64,000 bases of DNA from Ruditapes philippinarum (Eukaryota): NCBI RefSeq assembly GCF_026571515.1, contig NW_026857404.1, forward strand, positions 1 to 64,000, in the 5' to 3' direction. How positions within the stretch are numbered: position 1 is the stretch's first letter; each line of letters opens with the position of its first letter. Below are positions 21,001-54,000 of this stretch, one piece after another. The position numbers are program-made.

Positions 21001-24000
21001 ATAAAGTCTGTTTGTTACGCAAGACTAGAAAAAAATATGTACACTTGAAAACATAATTCCTCTTCACGAATTTATCGTTTCGCTTTCATGATATCACGAT
21101 TTTTAGATTTAAACAATTTCATTTTTATATTTTCACGACTTTAGCTTATCACGTTTCATCTACATAAATTCACGAACTTACGTTTCAAAATACATCTATT
21201 CATGACAGTTTATATGCAATTATGATTTTAAGAAGATGACTTAGTAAAGACAAAAATGTTACGTTAAGATTTATTCGTAAAATTAAATTTCTGAAGTTAA
21301 AATCACGTGTTTGTTATTTTTTGTACGAGAAGTTGATTTATACTGAAACCGATGAATTCTTAAAGCTTATATCGTGAATTCTTTAATTTGATATACAGAA
21401 GTCGCGAAATCACAAAGTTCAATCCGTCAGTTCGTTAAGTCGTATTGATGAAGTTAAATTTCCATTCCGGTCTGTCGGAGTTTGTTGATGAAAATCATTG
21501 ATAGAGTCATGAACAAATCACGAAATTTTTTTTTTATAATTTACCAATTTCGAAACAGAAAACAATAATTACGTTTCAGTTATCGATCAGTTGTCATGAC
21601 GTTTTAATATGTTTATCGATTGTTTTATCATTAGAACAAAAAAAATAATAAAATAAACAGAAATAAAAAACAAGATAAAATTTAAATAAAGATTCAAGTT
21701 TATAAGCATATATCAAAATACGATATAAGTTTACTTTGAAATCTCAAATTTTTCTTTTGTGATTTAGGCGGAGGTCAATGAGAAAACATTTCCACTTAAA
21801 AAGAAAATGTTTTAATGCCTATTTTGCGCTGAGATGTTTCTCATCGTCCATCTTAGTAGCCTAATCTGAGCTTTCTTAACCTATTTAAATATGCATAGAA
21901 ATCGTTTCTTCTTTAATGCGGATAGGGACATAAGACCTTATTTTCACGAATGTCAGATGTATTCATATAAATTAATAAAAAGTGTGTGAGGGATTCGATT
22001 GTAATTTGCACAAACTGATAAATTTGTGCGTTTGATTCAGTGCGTAGTTGAGTTTATTAATCATATACCTGCACACTGGCGTTTGTTACAAGTTCTTGTT
22101 TCGTCCGGACTTCCGTTACAATATCTTCCTAATAAAGATGGTCTTGGGTTAGAACATGCTCTTAGCCGACTTTGAATTCCACCTCCACAACTGACACTAC
22201 ATGAACCCCATCTTTGCCAACTTGACCATCCACCATCTAAAAGGAAAACCACTTTATGTATCTTGAAGGAATGGCTATATCATATCTATATACTTTTATT
22301 AGTGTATATTTTAAACAATGTTAACGAGCCTTTTTTCATTTAGGGGCATTGTTAGTTTATAGGAGTTTGTCGATAGTAAAATTTTATTACCCCTCTTCTA
22401 GATTTCCCTTCCCCCATTTTGATTGGATATTGATCAACCGAAAGAAATTTATATTACCGATCCAGACAGGTAATATACACATTAAAGTTCGCCGAGTGAG
22501 ACTAAAAAAGGATTGGAGCATTAAACTAAATACCGTATTCCGGTATATACCGGACACGGCGCTTTAATGATAAAATGCTAAAATCTTGCTTTTTAACCCA
22601 ACGGAATGAACTTTAAAATGTCTAATTCATCTTTTCACATTTATGTATGATAATGAATGAAAAACTTGAAAATCGGCGAAAAAAAACGATATTTGTCTAT
22701 TTTCTGATAATGATTTCTGCAAGCGTCTACATGTGCTGCTCAAATCCTGTATTTAGTTAAATCCAAGTTCGCCTTTTGGTACCTCACGTTTTAAACAACA
22801 TGCACTGTGACGATGCATGTACTGTTCGATGTTGCGCAGTGTAAATTCCGATATACAATCACTTTTTAACTGTCAAATAAAAAAATATTGACCAAAATAG
22901 AGTAATGATAAATATTCTAATCAGTATTTAAAGAAATTATGACCACGTCAAAGCTTGATATTATGTACAAAAAAGTTTCTTCAACAGACAACTTCTTTTT
23001 GTTTGTTTGTATTCGTTAGGTACGAAAGCAAACACGTCATGTATTTATGTGACGTCATTTTGTGATGAAGGGGTACCCTACTGGGAATCTTATTTCGACG
23101 TTTCATTGATTTATTTTAAAATCGTCTTACTCGGCAGTGGAAGGGCAATAAAATTATTATTTTGGTTTTGGAGTGATATACATAGTATGTGGATATATTA
23201 CCTTCTTAGATAAAATATTAGGCTCGGGTGACATACAATATTGGCAGTTAATATATCCACATAATATTATATCACTCCAAACCTAAATCGCACATAGGCC
23301 TAAGTATTAGATCTTATCGCAATATTAGACCAAAAAGAAATATAATGAAAAAAAAATAGTAAAAAATGATTGTACAAATTGTCTATAAATATTGTTTGCA
23401 TTATCAATTTCATTAATTGCTGTATAATAATTGTCTCATAAAATCGGGTTTCTCTAACTTGCTTAACCCGTTGTTCCGTTTTCAATACGAATAAGCTATG
23501 ATTTCTGGAGCAAGGTTGAAAAAACAAACATTGTTGACATGTTGTTGTGCGCTTCTTTCTTTTTTGTTAAGGCAGGAATAATGCTAAGAAAGTATTTCAT
23601 AACAAACTGCACGTATATAACTTACTGCATTGACAAACGTAAGTTTCATTATTTAAACATAACTGTCAAATAACATCGCACTAGCTTGTTAAAAACATGT
23701 CAAAATGGTTTCCTTATCCGAAAACCATAAGGACAAAATTTAGAATTATCAAAGTTATCTCGTACTTAATGCAAGAATAGCGTTTATGCACAATATTCGA
23801 TGCACTAACATCTACTGAAGGGCACGATTTTCCCCCATAATTATGCACAATAAAATAACCAAAAATATAAACTTATCATTCATACTTGTGTGAAATATAA
23901 TTATAATAACTTGATATAAAAACTTTGATTCTTTCAATAATCTGTGTTCATAGCAACAAAAAAAGGTATAAGTACTTTTAAAACACCATTCTTGCATGCA

Positions 24001-51000: not shown

Positions 51001-54000
51001 CGGCGCGTCTATAGAACAAGGCGTCTTTAAACTATGCTTGTATAATGCAAATTACGTTATGTCACAATATATGCAGACCGTACAATACTCTTTTTATAGA
51101 GTCGAAAAATCGACAAGGGTTTGTCTTTTTCGCCTATATATTCCATAAGAAAAAACGTCAAGCAATACAAGTTTATTTCCATTTATTTGGGCATGTGATC
51201 AATAAATTTTCCATTTGTCATAATTAAAATATCAAACTCGCTAAAGAAAATGTTATAAAGTTCACCAGAGGCTCTATTTTAAACACTTTCTTGAACTCGT
51301 TGAAAAATTATATATCTTATGAAAGATCTTTTACATTTTAAATAATGGACACTCGATTTTTTCCGAACAACACTTATTCACCGTCTTCGTGAGTAAAGAA
51401 TATAATATACCTGCACACTGATTTTTGTTGCAAGTTCTTGTCTCGTCCGGACTTCCATCACAATATTTTCCTGATAAAGATGGTCTTGGGTTAGAACATG
51501 TTCTTAGCCGACTTTGAATACCACCATCACAACTGACACTACATGAACCCCAGCTTTCCCAACTTGACCATTCACCATCTAAAAGGGAAGACACTTTAAG
51601 GAATGTTAAAACAGTTGTTATATCACATAAACTTTTATAACTGTATATTATAAACAAATTTGTAACGAGCCTTATGTAATATAGGGGCATTACAAGTTGT
51701 AGATTAGTGTTATTTATATTAGACCTAATCACATAATATTGTATTAAAAAGATATAGAATGAAAATATAAAGACAAAATCGTTTTTCATCAATTGCTGTA
51801 TAATAATATTCAGATAAAATAGGTTTTCGCTATCTTGCTTGTTTTTTTTTTGCGAGTCAAGAATGCTTGGGCCAGTTAAAGAACTCCTATTGACATGCAA
51901 TTTTTCTTAGTCTTACCCCGCCTTTCTGTATTTTATAGATATAGTTACAAGATTTTACATTCTTGCAAAAAACTTTTTACGCCATTTAACGCCATTCAAC
52001 GTTGAAATTTTGTCTCATGCTTATACTTTCTCATACATTAATATTATCGTGCGAATCAAAATGTAAAAATATTCGCGACGATTAACCTTATTTTCGCATG
52101 TCTCTTTCGAAAACTGTAACTTATTTACAGTACCAGTGTCTATAGTATAAGTTCTTCGAAAAAAAGAATGTTAATTCCATTCAACCACAATATTTCCGAA
52201 ATAAAGACAAACAAATAAAAATAAAATAAATTACTAAACTTGTAATTTGTATGTAGCACTGGGACAATATATTCACTTTAACATAATGCACAACTACTAA
52301 ATACATTATTATATTTGACTATAAGATTAATATACCGTATATGAGACATGATCTTATATCAAAATCCACTGAATAATTCACAATCCTAATGATAAAGACA
52401 CTGACAAACGTTCTCTTAAATTAAAGTATAACGCTCTTTAGCACTGTCGCTCGTCCAGCGACCATGACGTTTAAACATTCTGTCTTTAATTCCATTGTTG
52501 GCCGCCGCTGAAGCTCCACCTGCCCTTAACGAAAGCAGACACTATTTAGAAATGTCACTTACATGCGGCATGAAAGCTAATCTAAATTCATCTCTCAAAT
52601 TAGTATATGACATTGGCTTATTAACTGTCTTTTTCTTAAATCCATTTTTAGTCTTACTAATATTACAAAACAAAAAATAACTTGAATCTAAATTTGCCCA
52701 TCTTATATATTTCTCAAGATTAACAACTGGGCATAACTTGGTACCAGTTCTAGCTATCAATATCATATCCAAGAACCATTCCTGTATTTATCCGCCTACT
52801 AGTTACAACAAAAAGTGCCAAAAAAGATGGATAAAATACTAGATCTGAAACAACAATGTTTAACAATTCAGCGCTTCGTAAAAACCCTGAAAACCCTAAA
52901 ACACTAGCACAAATTATACGCTGATGTTTTAAATCGTAAGGCTTACACAACCTAGCATACATAGCGGAAAAAATTTCAACTGTCATAACTTCTTTCTTAA
53001 CTGTTTGTTTTGCTCAAATTCTTTTCGCTGCCTCAAGGATATTGGTGACTTAAGAAGAACTGGTTGGAGAACGCACACCATTAATATCATGAATCCATTT
53101 TAAAGAATAATAAGCACTAATCACTGGACTTGCACTATTTGCAGACTGACTTAAAGATGTTAGATACAGTGCAACCGGAAATGCACTTGCAGGTAAAATA
53201 TCCCGACTCCCCAAACCGTTACTAATAGCCCACTTTCTCCATCGATTTAATCCATTCTCATACTTCCGACTAGTGCCAGGTGCACGTGCCAGGTGCATCT
53301 AAATACAACAGTCTATAAACGAATACATGTATTTACATAAACACTAGACTAGCGATACCGCATGTCAAAAACGGCCGTCTGATACCAGATCGGCTATCAA
53401 TACTGATTGTTGGCGATCCCGCCTATATACATGTGTAATCTCACAATAAATGTGTAAATTCAACACATTGCTAACATTCGAAATTTAAGATTCATATTTC
53501 CAAAAATTCCTTTCCCATTTTTACAGCTTACATAATGTTCTTTACCCACTGGCAAATCTATCCAATTAATAATCGCTTTTAAAAACTGTCCATGCGGACA
53601 AAGAAGAGGCCAAAAAGGCGCTGACTTCCATAAAGGTACAACTTATACACCCTTTGCCTTATCAACAGACATTTTTCTTAAAACTATGCGAATGATACTT
53701 ATTGGTGGCACAAACAGGCCAAAACTATCACCCCAAAATGCTGTGAAAGCATCAATGCCATAAGACGAAGGATTCCAGAAACGAGAATAACATTTAGAAA
53801 TTTTAGCATTATGCTCCGAAGCAAACCAATCTACTTCAAAAATACCATATTATTTTTGGGGAGAAAGCCAAGGGGATGATAAAATCCCCCATTTCATCAT
53901 AGTCAAAAAATTTCTAAAAAAGGGAATTTCAGCTTTCCTCATTTTTCATAACGGGGCATTTTTTCCGTTTATCCAAAGCAACAAAATTTTAAATAAATGA

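What the first reader, a model, noticed from the sequence alone, without database searches (positions are those of the whole stretch)
22069..51578. Ten near-identical symmetric TSR exons: substrate for combinatorial or mutually exclusive splicing
Seen: the readable copies keep WSSWxxW, CSVSC, RxRxC and six Cys. They differ at a few positions (G/E3, ES/EN/ER/QR 8-9, R/K32, L/S36, R/K38, D/N41, S/N43, D/E/F45, N/R53), most of which change charge or polarity. Eight copies have intact frames and splice sites although their introns carry many indels, which suggests purifying selection or very recent origin. Known: WxxWxxW and CxxS/TC are C-mannosylation and POFUT2 O-fucosylation consensus sites. 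Inference: isoforms differing in TSR number or identity, loosely analogous to Dscam exon clusters.
Basis: partly seen in the sequence, partly recalled or inferred. Interest (0 to 1): 0.7.

Follow-up and report, generated by a model that had tools for sequence, protein, structure and literature searches.

The report
Amplified thrombospondin-repeat exons in clam C1q gene
A Manila clam gene for a secreted coiled-coil/thrombospondin-repeat/C1q protein has copied one 168-base repeat exon ten times in a row, which lets transcripts carry different numbers of repeats but gives no sign of Dscam-style one-exon-only splicing.

Summary
The minus strand carries ten copies of a 168-nt, phase 1-1 TSR exon at 51578-22069. 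Eight are intact with AG/GT sites. T4 has two +1 homopolymer insertions. T3 is garbled.

The window matches RefSeq proteins of Ruditapes philippinarum LOC132749606 at 100% identity. The gene reads signal exon, helical exon, TSR array, C1q exon.

Four RefSeq isoform models differ in TSR content:
- X2: T8-T9-T10.
- X3: T7-T8-T10.
- X5: T7-T8-T9 plus an alternative terminal exon, with no C1q.
- X4: T4 (partial) through T10.

So variable TSR number or identity is already modelled, but only computationally. I found no transcript-derived proteins.

Mutually exclusive splicing is not supported. Every model joins neighbouring copies. Exon length is a multiple of three. Introns are at least 1559 nt. 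All sites are GT-AG. No docking/selector complementarity was found.

Constraint is weak. pN/pS is 0.59 (bootstrap 0.23-1.85). Variable sites are 23 of 168 in exons against 55 of 239 in introns (p=0.02). Exons also show a deficit of indels (p=0.013).

T3 lies in a 1.35-kb homopolymer-smeared block that looks like an assembly artefact.

Verdict: a lineage-specific tandem exon amplification, an ordinary kind of event in an undescribed TSR-C1q family.

The parts
63727..63949 (-). Coding exon 1 (ATG at 63949): hydrophobic N-terminus MDKIKLVIVIVTIIVNGTNC, a presumed signal peptide, then the start of the helical region. Ends in phase 1.
   Evidence: 100% tblastn match to residues 1-74 of P0009/P0010/P0011. 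Donor G|GTAAT read. The signal peptide is inferred from the sequence and was not run through a predictor.
58059..58595 (-). Coding exon 2: 179-residue helical (coiled-coil-like) stalk with no Pfam family. Ends in phase 1.
   Evidence: 100% match to residues 75-253 of the isoform models. Pfam gave 0 families. AlphaFold2 single-sequence model is helical at 8-51, 53-70 and 76-178, mean pLDDT 75.7. Boundaries read.
51411..51578 (-). TSR exon T1: intact, 168 nt, phase 1-1. Unique L36S. In none of the four retrieved isoform models.
47463..47630 (-). TSR exon T2: intact. R32K and the radical D45F (GAC to TTC). In none of the four retrieved models.
45756..45901 (-). TSR exon T3: garbled copy, 71.6% identical to T5, with no usable splice sites or frame as assembled. 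It sits in a homopolymer-smeared block at about 45550-46900.
41730..41899 (-). TSR exon T4: 170 nt. Two separate +1 homopolymer insertions (TT to TTT, AAAA to AAAAA) give a TAA stop. Splice sites are intact. RefSeq model X4 starts at an internal ATG here.
38923..39090 (-). TSR exon T5: intact. R32K and A56T. Present in model X4.
   Evidence: Pfam TSP_1 43.1 bits against a cutoff of 21.6
37196..37363 (-). TSR exon T6: intact. E3G and S9R. Present in model X4.
33432..33599 (-). TSR exon T7: intact. Joined directly to exon 2 in models X3 and X5. Also in X4.
30839..31006 (-). TSR exon T8: intact. S9N and S43N. Joined directly to exon 2 in model X2. Present in all four models.
29110..29277 (-). TSR exon T9: intact. 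S9N, D45E, N53R and A56E. Skipped in model X3.
24887..24906 (-). Alternative terminal coding exon (..G WPVRN stop) inside the 6873-nt T9-T10 intron. It gives the C1q-less model X5.
22069..22236 (-). TSR exon T10: intact, the most divergent open copy (89.9% to T5). It is closest to the single TSR of paralogous genes and is probably the founder copy. Present in X2, X3 and X4.
   Evidence: Pfam TSP_1 46.1 bits
16429..16844 (-). Last coding exon: globular C1q domain plus the TAG stop.
   Evidence: Pfam C1q 59.3 bits against a cutoff of 23.7. Best solved relatives are adiponectin and C1q. Match to the models. Boundaries read.
45550..46900 (.). Block of homopolymer-inflated sequence with sharp edges that contains T3. 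Probably low-quality assembly consensus.

Best explanation
This is a lineage-specific tandem amplification of one exon. The exon encodes the TSR next to the C1q head in a Manila clam gene (RefSeq LOC132749606, minus strand) for a secreted protein built as signal peptide, long helical stalk, TSR(n), globular C1q.

Repeated unequal crossing-over copied the 168-nt exon together with about 1.5 kb of intron. It later copied larger blocks of up to 5.6 kb, giving ten copies. Each copy is a whole domain in a phase 1-1 exon with the same splice sites, so the spliceosome can include or skip any copy without breaking the frame.

The expected product is therefore a family of isoforms that differ in the number and identity of TSRs (cassette-type inclusion). 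One isoform lacks the C1q head through an alternative terminal exon. This is not one-of-many (mutually exclusive) choice.

Inferred function: a soluble, oligomeric recognition or adhesion protein. The C1q head and the TSRs bind ligands, and the TSR count sets reach and valency.

Shown: the anatomy, the domain identities, the shared descent of the units and the existence of differing RefSeq models.

Inferred: real isoform variety, secretion, oligomerisation and any immune role.
For: Anatomy.
- Ten copies, 8 open, 9 with AG/GT sites, 168 nt, phase 1-1.
- Units share their introns at 85-93% identity. One 5.6-kb block (40664-46198 against 46345-51855) matches at 89.1%.
- Pieces of the ancestral intron 2 (57087-57685 and 51579-51839) recur in each unit.

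Identity.
- Exon translations match P0002, P0009, P0010 and P0011 of R. philippinarum at 100%.
- Pfam scores are TSP_1 43-46 bits and C1q 59 bits, all above cutoff.
- The TSR aligns without gaps to thrombospondin-1 TSR2 and TSR3.

Isoforms.
- The 4 of 4 retrieved models differ in array content, and each holds 3 to 6 whole array exons.

Origin.
- In a tree of 36 TSR units, T1, T2 and T5-T10 fall in the R. philippinarum branch of the 'C1q-proximal TSR' clade (support 98/93).
- Paralogues carry one such unit. Mercenaria P0004 carries two adjacent near-identical ones.

Family.
- 10 of 24 hits carry both TSP_1 and C1q: 6 from Ruditapes, 2 from Mercenaria and 2 from Dreissena.

Constraint.
- Variable sites are 23 of 168 in exons against 55 of 239 in introns (Fisher p=0.021).
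- There is one indel-bearing exon against 10 indel events in 270 intron columns (Poisson p=0.013).
- The 13 variable residues miss all 12 core positions (p=0.027).
Against: No transcript was seen. The isoform models are automatic predictions. The first 25 nt of T1, T2, T5, T7, T8 and T9 are identical, so junction reads from exon 2 could be mis-placed.

No retrieved model contains T1, T2 or T3, so the upstream copies may be unused.

pN/pS among the copies is 0.59, with a codon bootstrap range of 0.23-1.85 and 14% of resamples at or above 1. Protein-level selection on the copies is therefore not shown. The three supporting tests are each only marginal and treat related copies as independent.

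Two copies are broken as assembled. Signal peptide, oligomerisation and ligand binding are all untested.
Confidence: 0.62

Rival explanations
1. One fixed transcript: the gene makes essentially one mRNA, for example exon 2 plus T7-T10 plus C1q, or all splice-competent copies. The differing RefSeq isoforms would then be artefacts of placing short reads on 95-98% identical exons. On this reading T1-T6 could be silent pseudo-exons lying in a long intron.
For: T1 and T7 differ at 2 of 168 bases. Six copies are identical over their first 25 nt. No retrieved model contains T1-T3. The two broken copies (T3, T4) are both in the upstream half. pN/pS is not significantly below 1.
Against: Model X4 runs T4 through T10 in a row, so at least T4-T6 were modelled as expressed. 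T1, T2, T5 and T6 keep open frames, splice sites and all core residues despite intron indels.
Confidence: 0.25
2. Dscam-like mutually exclusive splicing: each transcript takes exactly one exon of the array, chosen by competing RNA structures.
For: Tandemly duplicated similar exons often end up mutually exclusive (abstract and introduction passages of PMC6071210).
Against: All 4 of 4 models hold 3 to 6 whole neighbouring copies. Exon length is 3n, so the NMD route is excluded (passage). The shortest intron is 1559 nt. Donors and acceptors are uniform GT-AG. Reverse-complement blastn between flanking introns and the array gave 2 and 4 hits at E<=1, none recurring in 4 or more units. The longest WC/GU stem between intron 2 and a unit intron was 16, which all 20 of 20 shuffles reached. 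For the last intron it was 21, which 0 of 20 shuffles reached, but that stem is a U-rich/purine-rich low-complexity pairing.
Confidence: 0.03
3. Assembly artefact: the ten units are inflated or mis-joined copies of fewer real units.
For: The window contains blocks of obviously poor sequence at 1-900, 1800-2200, 2800-4000 and 45550-46900. Tandem repeats of 1.7-5.7 kb are hard to assemble.
Against: Units differ from each other by 2.5-12% in introns, by specific indels, and in intron length (1559-3856 nt). RefSeq protein models distinguish T5-T10 by their own substitutions. An independent unnamed contig (P0021) carries yet another variant of the unit, at best 93% to T1.
Confidence: 0.06

Closest known systems
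Thrombospondin type-1 repeats of thrombospondin-1 (TSR2/TSR3, PDB 1LSL) and properdin
   Same: Gapless 54-residue alignment with the same six Cys, the WxxWxxW and RxR layers, and CSVSCxxG at the POFUT2 site. Pfam TSP_1 scores above cutoff. Tandem TSRs form a rod-like array.
   Different: Here ten copies come from one exon amplified within a single gene and are 90-98% alike, whereas the vertebrate repeats are old and divergent. The partner domains (helical stalk, C1q head) are different. Glycosylation is untested. The C-mannosylation and O-fucosylation consensus rules are recalled, not taken from a call.
Bivalve secreted C1q-domain-containing proteins (C1qDC, sghC1q type)
   Same: Signal-like N-terminus, helical stalk and a C-terminal globular C1q domain. 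The gene sits in a tandem gene family: a paralogous first exon lies at 4664-4446.
   Different: TSRs are inserted between stalk and head. The C1qDC review I searched (PMC10672478, term search only) has no occurrence of 'thrombospondin' or 'TSP'. TSP_1+C1q proteins appeared only as RefSeq models of Ruditapes, Mercenaria and Dreissena.
Insect Dscam1 variable exon clusters (mutually exclusive exons)
   Same: Tandem arrays of similar duplicated exons, each encoding a whole or half domain of an extracellular protein. Origin by tandem exon duplication.
   Different: Dscam takes one exon per cluster through docking/selector RNA pairing. Here neighbouring copies are co-included in all 4 models and no docking/selector pairing was found. 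Here diversity would lie in repeat number, not in one-of-N choice.
Near-identical domain-exon arrays with variable copy number, such as the SRCR exons of DMBT1/gp340 or kringle IV-2 of LPA (recalled from memory, not checked in a call)
   Same: One domain per exon unit, symmetric phases and high identity between units including introns. Domain number can vary without loss of frame. DMBT1 is also a secreted pattern-recognition protein.
   Different: In those genes the variation is chiefly germ-line copy number between individuals. Here copy-number polymorphism is only suspected, and the variation seen so far is between splice models.

Membership tests
TSP_1 / thrombospondin type-1 repeat (Pfam PF00090) | Profile score above the curated cutoff | tested here: met
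   T5 scored 43.1 bits and T10 46.1 bits against a cutoff of 21.6, covering profile positions 1-49 of 49.
TSP_1 / thrombospondin type-1 repeat (Pfam PF00090) | Six cysteines, Trp layer (WxxWxxW) and Arg layer (RxR) in the spacing of solved group-1 TSRs | tested here: met
   Gapless alignment of residues 1-54 to thrombospondin-1 TSR2/TSR3 in 1lsl_A and 7yyk_A. These residues are invariant in 8 of 8 open copies.
TSP_1 / thrombospondin type-1 repeat (Pfam PF00090) | C-mannosylation of Trp and O-fucosylation of the CxxS/TC serine | not testable with these tools
   The consensus motifs are present in all 8 open copies. The modification itself needs mass spectrometry. The motif rules are recalled.
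C1q domain (Pfam PF00386) / bivalve C1qDC | C-terminal globular C1q domain above the curated cutoff | tested here: met
   59.3 bits against a cutoff of 23.7, profile positions 1-127 of 127. The best solved relatives are adiponectin, C1q and C1q-like proteins.
C1q domain (Pfam PF00386) / bivalve C1qDC | Secretion signal and oligomerising stalk | tested here: inconclusive
   Exon 1 has a hydrophobic N-terminus, but no signal-peptide predictor was available. Exon 2 is modelled as long helices with pLDDT 75.7 from a single sequence. Oligomerisation is not established.
Mutually exclusive exon cluster (Dscam type) | One and only one exon of the array per transcript | tested here: not met
   0 of 4 RefSeq models have a single array exon; they hold 3, 3, 3 and 6 whole copies. 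The models are predictions, not reads.
Mutually exclusive exon cluster (Dscam type) | A mechanism that forbids co-inclusion: docking/selector pairing, short intron, U2/U12 mix, or frame-shift with NMD | tested here: not met
   No recurring complementarity was found. Introns are 1559-6873 nt. All 9 of 9 splice-competent copies are GT-AG with the same donor. The 168 nt length equals 56 codons. Weak or interrupted RNA pairings could have been missed.
Cassette exons from tandem exon duplication | Symmetric phase and competent splice sites on each copy | tested here: met
   8 of 10 copies are 168 nt, phase 1-1 and open. 9 of 10 have AG and GT sites.
Cassette exons from tandem exon duplication | Transcripts that differ in which copies they include | tested here: inconclusive
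   4 of 4 retrieved RefSeq models differ, but no transcript-derived sequence could be found. Isoform X1 could not be retrieved (unavailable).

The most novel reading that the evidence does not exclude
The array could be a working diversity generator of a clam recognition protein. With eight open, in-frame, individually skippable TSR exons carrying surface substitutions, up to 2^8 exon combinations are possible. A C1q-less form and copy-number differences between individuals would add to this. The animal could then produce an individualised, perhaps infection-responsive, repertoire of TSR-C1q receptors. That would be a molluscan counterpart, by repeat number and identity, to Dscam-hv, FREP or Sp185/333 diversity.
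Probability: 0.12. Interest if true: 0.7.

Novelty: new member of a known kind. Interest (0 to 1): 0.35.

Why it matters
Bivalves have hugely expanded C1q-domain gene families and are thought to rely on them for recognition without antibodies. A C1q gene that also carries an amplified, skippable TSR array would show a second layer of diversification, in repeat number and identity within one gene, on top of gene duplication. It would also put on record a TSR-C1q architecture that I found only as automatic RefSeq models. My four literature searches for it gave no paper describing it. As it stands, the case is an ordinary example of tandem exon duplication of a phase 1-1 domain exon. It also carries a practical warning: the two 'broken' copies may be sequencing errors, which would change the gene model.

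Tried and rejected
- Homo-trimer test of the exon-2 helix (residues 76-179, three copies). It returned no verdict (score 0.01, controls not run) and is used neither for nor against oligomerisation.
- RNAduplex of the whole flanking introns against unit introns. A trial on 1 kb gave an implausible duplex full of giant loops. I replaced the method with an exact stem-run count against shuffles.
- The listing of cluster members, tried in order to retrieve isoform X1 and cluster mates, was unavailable, so X1's exon content is unknown.
- The protein searches found no transcript-derived proteins that would show which TSR follows exon 2. Only RefSeq models and short genomic ORFs came back.
- Four literature searches for a described TSR-C1q protein or TSR exon array in bivalves (with term look-ups) found nothing relevant.
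- Pfam on three long intronic ORFs (55238-55915, 54988-55431, 43783-44205) gave no family.
- The first tree attempt failed to pick up the paralogue units because of a wrong pattern. It was redone.
- I considered that exon-specific gene conversion keeps the exons alike, and rejected it as unnecessary. Synonymous divergence (0.061) is close to intron divergence (0.080).
- I considered that the 168-176-bp intronic tandem repeat is related to the 168-nt exon. It is not: blastn with the exon hits only the ten exon copies.

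
Full report
**What is there**

The window has no N and about 31% G+C. A six-frame motif scan found nine WSSWxxW + CSVSC units, all on the minus strand.

In gene order (high to low coordinates) the copies are:

| Copy | Coordinates |
|---|---|
| T1 | 51578-51411 |
| T2 | 47630-47463 |
| T3 | 45901-45756 |
| T4 | 41899-41730 |
| T5 | 39090-38923 |
| T6 | 37363-37196 |
| T7 | 33599-33432 |
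| T8 | 31006-30839 |
| T9 | 29277-29110 |
| T10 | 22236-22069 |

- Eight copies (T1, T2, T5-T10) are 168 nt, open and in phase 1-1.
- Nine copies have a pyrimidine tract plus AG and a G|GTAT donor.
- T4 carries two separate one-base homopolymer insertions that create a TAA stop.
- T3 is only 71.6% identical to T5 and unreadable as protein.
- A profile built from 36 TSR units found nothing further in the six-frame translation: 8 whole copies plus T4 in two pieces.
It missed D18G and T27A (T10) and A56T/E (T5, T9).

**Whose gene it is**

All searches were made exon by exon. What follows about isoforms comes from comparing public RefSeq proteins with the single-exon translations.

A search with one TSR exon returned 24 proteins among 27 candidates. 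Four models of Ruditapes philippinarum (Manila clam) LOC132749606 match the window's exons at 100%.

The gene on the minus strand has five parts:
- Exon 1, 63949-63727, with a hydrophobic, signal-like start.
- Exon 2, 58595-58059. It has no Pfam family and is modelled as long helices with mean pLDDT 75.7 from a single sequence.
- The TSR array.
- An alternative terminal exon at 24906-24887.
- A C1q exon, 16844-16429, scoring 59.3 bits in Pfam against a cutoff of 23.7.

The TSR exons score 43-46 bits on TSP_1 (cutoff 21.6). They align without gaps to thrombospondin-1 TSR2/TSR3.

**The isoform models**

| Model | Exon content |
|---|---|
| X2 | exon 1, exon 2, T8, T9, T10, C1q |
| X3 | exon 1, exon 2, T7, T8, T10, C1q (T9 skipped) |
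| X5 | exon 1, exon 2, T7, T8, T9, alternative terminal exon (no C1q) |
| X4 | starts at an internal ATG just after the T4 frameshift, then T5 through T10 and C1q |

Isoforms that differ in TSR number and identity are therefore already in the public annotation.

There are three caveats:
- These are automatic models.
- T1 and T7 differ at 2 of 168 bases, and six copies share their first 25 nt, so junction reads could be mis-placed.
- No retrieved model uses T1-T3.

I found no transcript-derived protein. I could not retrieve isoform X1 (unavailable).

**Mutually exclusive (Dscam-like) splicing**

I tested the requirements listed in the introduction of PMC6071210 (passages read):
- One exon per transcript: not met in 0 of 4 models.
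- Frame-shift/NMD: not applicable, because 168 is a multiple of three.
- Steric hindrance: introns are 1559-6873 nt.
- Spliceosome incompatibility: all nine competent copies share the same GT-AG sites.
- Docking/selector pairing, blastn test: reverse-complement blastn between the two flanking introns and the array gave 2 and 4 hits at E<=1, none recurring in four or more units.
- Docking/selector pairing, stem count for intron 2: the longest uninterrupted WC/GU stem against a unit intron was 16, which all 20 of 20 dinucleotide shuffles reached.
- Docking/selector pairing, stem count for the last intron: the longest stem was 21, which 0 of 20 shuffles reached. It is a U-rich against purine-rich low-complexity pairing.

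Interrupted pairings could have been missed. Still, nothing supports this reading.

**How the array arose**

- Units share introns as well as exons. Off-diagonal matches run at 85-93% identity, and one 5.6-kb block covering two exons matches at 89.1%.
- The short introns (1559-1561 nt, after T2, T5 and T8) are the basic unit.
- The long introns add about 1.5 kb and an expanded 168-176-bp tandem repeat.
- Segments of the ancestral intron 2 recur in every unit.

In a tree of 36 TSR units, the eight open copies fall in the R. philippinarum branch (support 98/93) of a 'C1q-proximal TSR' clade that also holds the Mercenaria units (99/90). T1-T9 group together more weakly (89/88), with two paralogue units nested among them. 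Units for this tree were picked by a motif pattern. T3, T4, identical duplicates and units that did not fit the pattern were left out.

Paralogues with the same N-terminus carry a single TSR (P0008, P0023). A Mercenaria model has two adjacent near-identical units of the same type. T10 is closest to the paralogues' unit. The picture is a recent, lineage-specific amplification of one exon by unequal crossing-over.

**Constraint**

Among T1, T2 and T5-T9, pooled over pairs:
- pS = 0.061, pN = 0.036, and upstream-intron divergence = 0.080.
- pN/pS = 0.59, codon bootstrap 0.23-1.85, with 14% of resamples at or above 1. With T10 included it is 0.52 (0.26-1.21).

Amino-acid constraint is therefore not demonstrated. 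Three marginal signals point towards some constraint:
- Variable sites are 23 of 168 in exons against 55 of 239 in the 5' flanking intron (Fisher p=0.021).
- Indel events number 10 in 270 intron columns, against one affected exon. About 6.3 would be expected (Poisson p=0.013).
- The 13 variable residues avoid all 12 core positions, namely 3 Trp, 6 Cys, 2 Arg and the fucosylation Ser (p=0.027).

These tests treat related copies as independent.

**The broken copies may be artefacts**

T3 lies in a block at about 45550-46900 with sharp edges, where 0.5-0.6 of bases equal their neighbour against about 0.33 elsewhere.

| Comparison | Mismatches | Homopolymer-extending on first side | On second side | Extra bases in first side |
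|---|---|---|---|---|
| T3 block against its T1 paralogue | 82 | 74 | 12 | 59, of which 57 in homopolymers |
| Control pair 1 | 35 | 20 | 14 | not listed |
| Control pair 2 | 38 | 18 | 17 | not listed |

The same signature occurs at 1-900, 1800-2200 and 2800-4000.

I know of no mutational process that does this. It looks like unpolished long-read consensus, which is an inference. T4's two lesions are also +1 homopolymer changes 12 nt apart. Both 'pseudo-exons' should be re-sequenced before they are called dead.

**How it most likely works**

Shown: a gene encoding signal-like N-terminus, helical stalk, TSR(n) and globular C1q, with n set by which of the symmetric exons are spliced in.

Inferred:
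- A secreted, oligomeric recognition or adhesion protein, like other bivalve C1q-domain proteins.
- Changing the TSR number alters reach and valency.
- Copy-specific surface substitutions may alter binding.
- The alternative terminal exon yields a head-less form.

The family (TSP_1 + C1q) appeared in 10 of 24 hits, from three heterodont bivalves. I found no paper describing it. The C1qDC review PMC10672478 has no occurrence of 'thrombospondin' or 'TSP' (term look-up only). Subscription papers and supplements were not visible.

**Verdict**

- The event is an ordinary kind, tandem duplication of a phase 1-1 domain exon, in a little-described gene family.
- The window is clam sequence. Nothing in it was taken for human.
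- Left unchecked: transcripts, isoform X1, population copy number, and the closed metagenome and viral collections.

Noticed in passing
window 1-900, 1800-2200, 2800-4000, 45550-46900: Blocks with sharp edges in which more than half of all bases equal their neighbour (background about one third). They look like homopolymer-inflated, low-quality assembly consensus. One block contains TSR copy T3.
   Followed up: yes
window 4664-4446 (minus strand): A second copy of coding exon 1 (77% identical over 74 residues, MGKIEFLIIMVTIIVNGTNC...) marks the start of a neighbouring tandem paralogue downstream of the C1q exon. Its exon 2 was not detected, perhaps because it would fall in the poor-quality blocks.
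   Followed up: partly
window 31915-32400, 34829-35660, 40161-40556, 43713-44119, 48886-49835: A 168-176-bp tandem repeat sits in the unit introns and is expanded in the long ones. Its period happens to equal the exon length, but the sequence is unrelated to the exon. It may be a repeat-bearing mobile element; that idea is recalled, not tested.
   Followed up: partly
window 26299-27393 and 13206-13446: A 132-277-bp tandem repeat array (about 7 copies of 144 bp) lies in the unique 6873-nt T9-T10 intron. A 25-bp repeat (9.6 copies) lies downstream of the gene.
   Followed up: no
window 24906-24887 (minus strand): A small alternative terminal exon (..GWPVRN stop), used by RefSeq model X5, gives a protein with TSRs but no C1q head.
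   Followed up: yes
proteins P0008 (R. philippinarum, 1169 aa) and P0004 (M. mercenaria, 1425 aa): Both look like run-together models of several tandem TSR-C1q genes, since N-terminus, TSR and C1q segments repeat within one protein. P0004 also has two adjacent near-identical C1q-proximal TSRs, an independent small duplication of the same exon type.
   Followed up: partly
protein P0021 (unnamed 1405-bp contig) against window 51690-51334: An unspliced reading through a TSR unit from an independent record is at best 93% identical (111 of 119 residues) to any unit here (T1). This suggests further copies or divergent alleles in other individuals.
   Followed up: partly
exon positions 132-134 (T2), 156-158 (T9, T10) and 52-53 (T10): Several differences between copies are runs of two or three adjacent changed bases: GAC to TTC, AAT to CGC, GAT to GGA. 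These suggest multi-nucleotide mutations or old divergence carried over by conversion.
   Followed up: no
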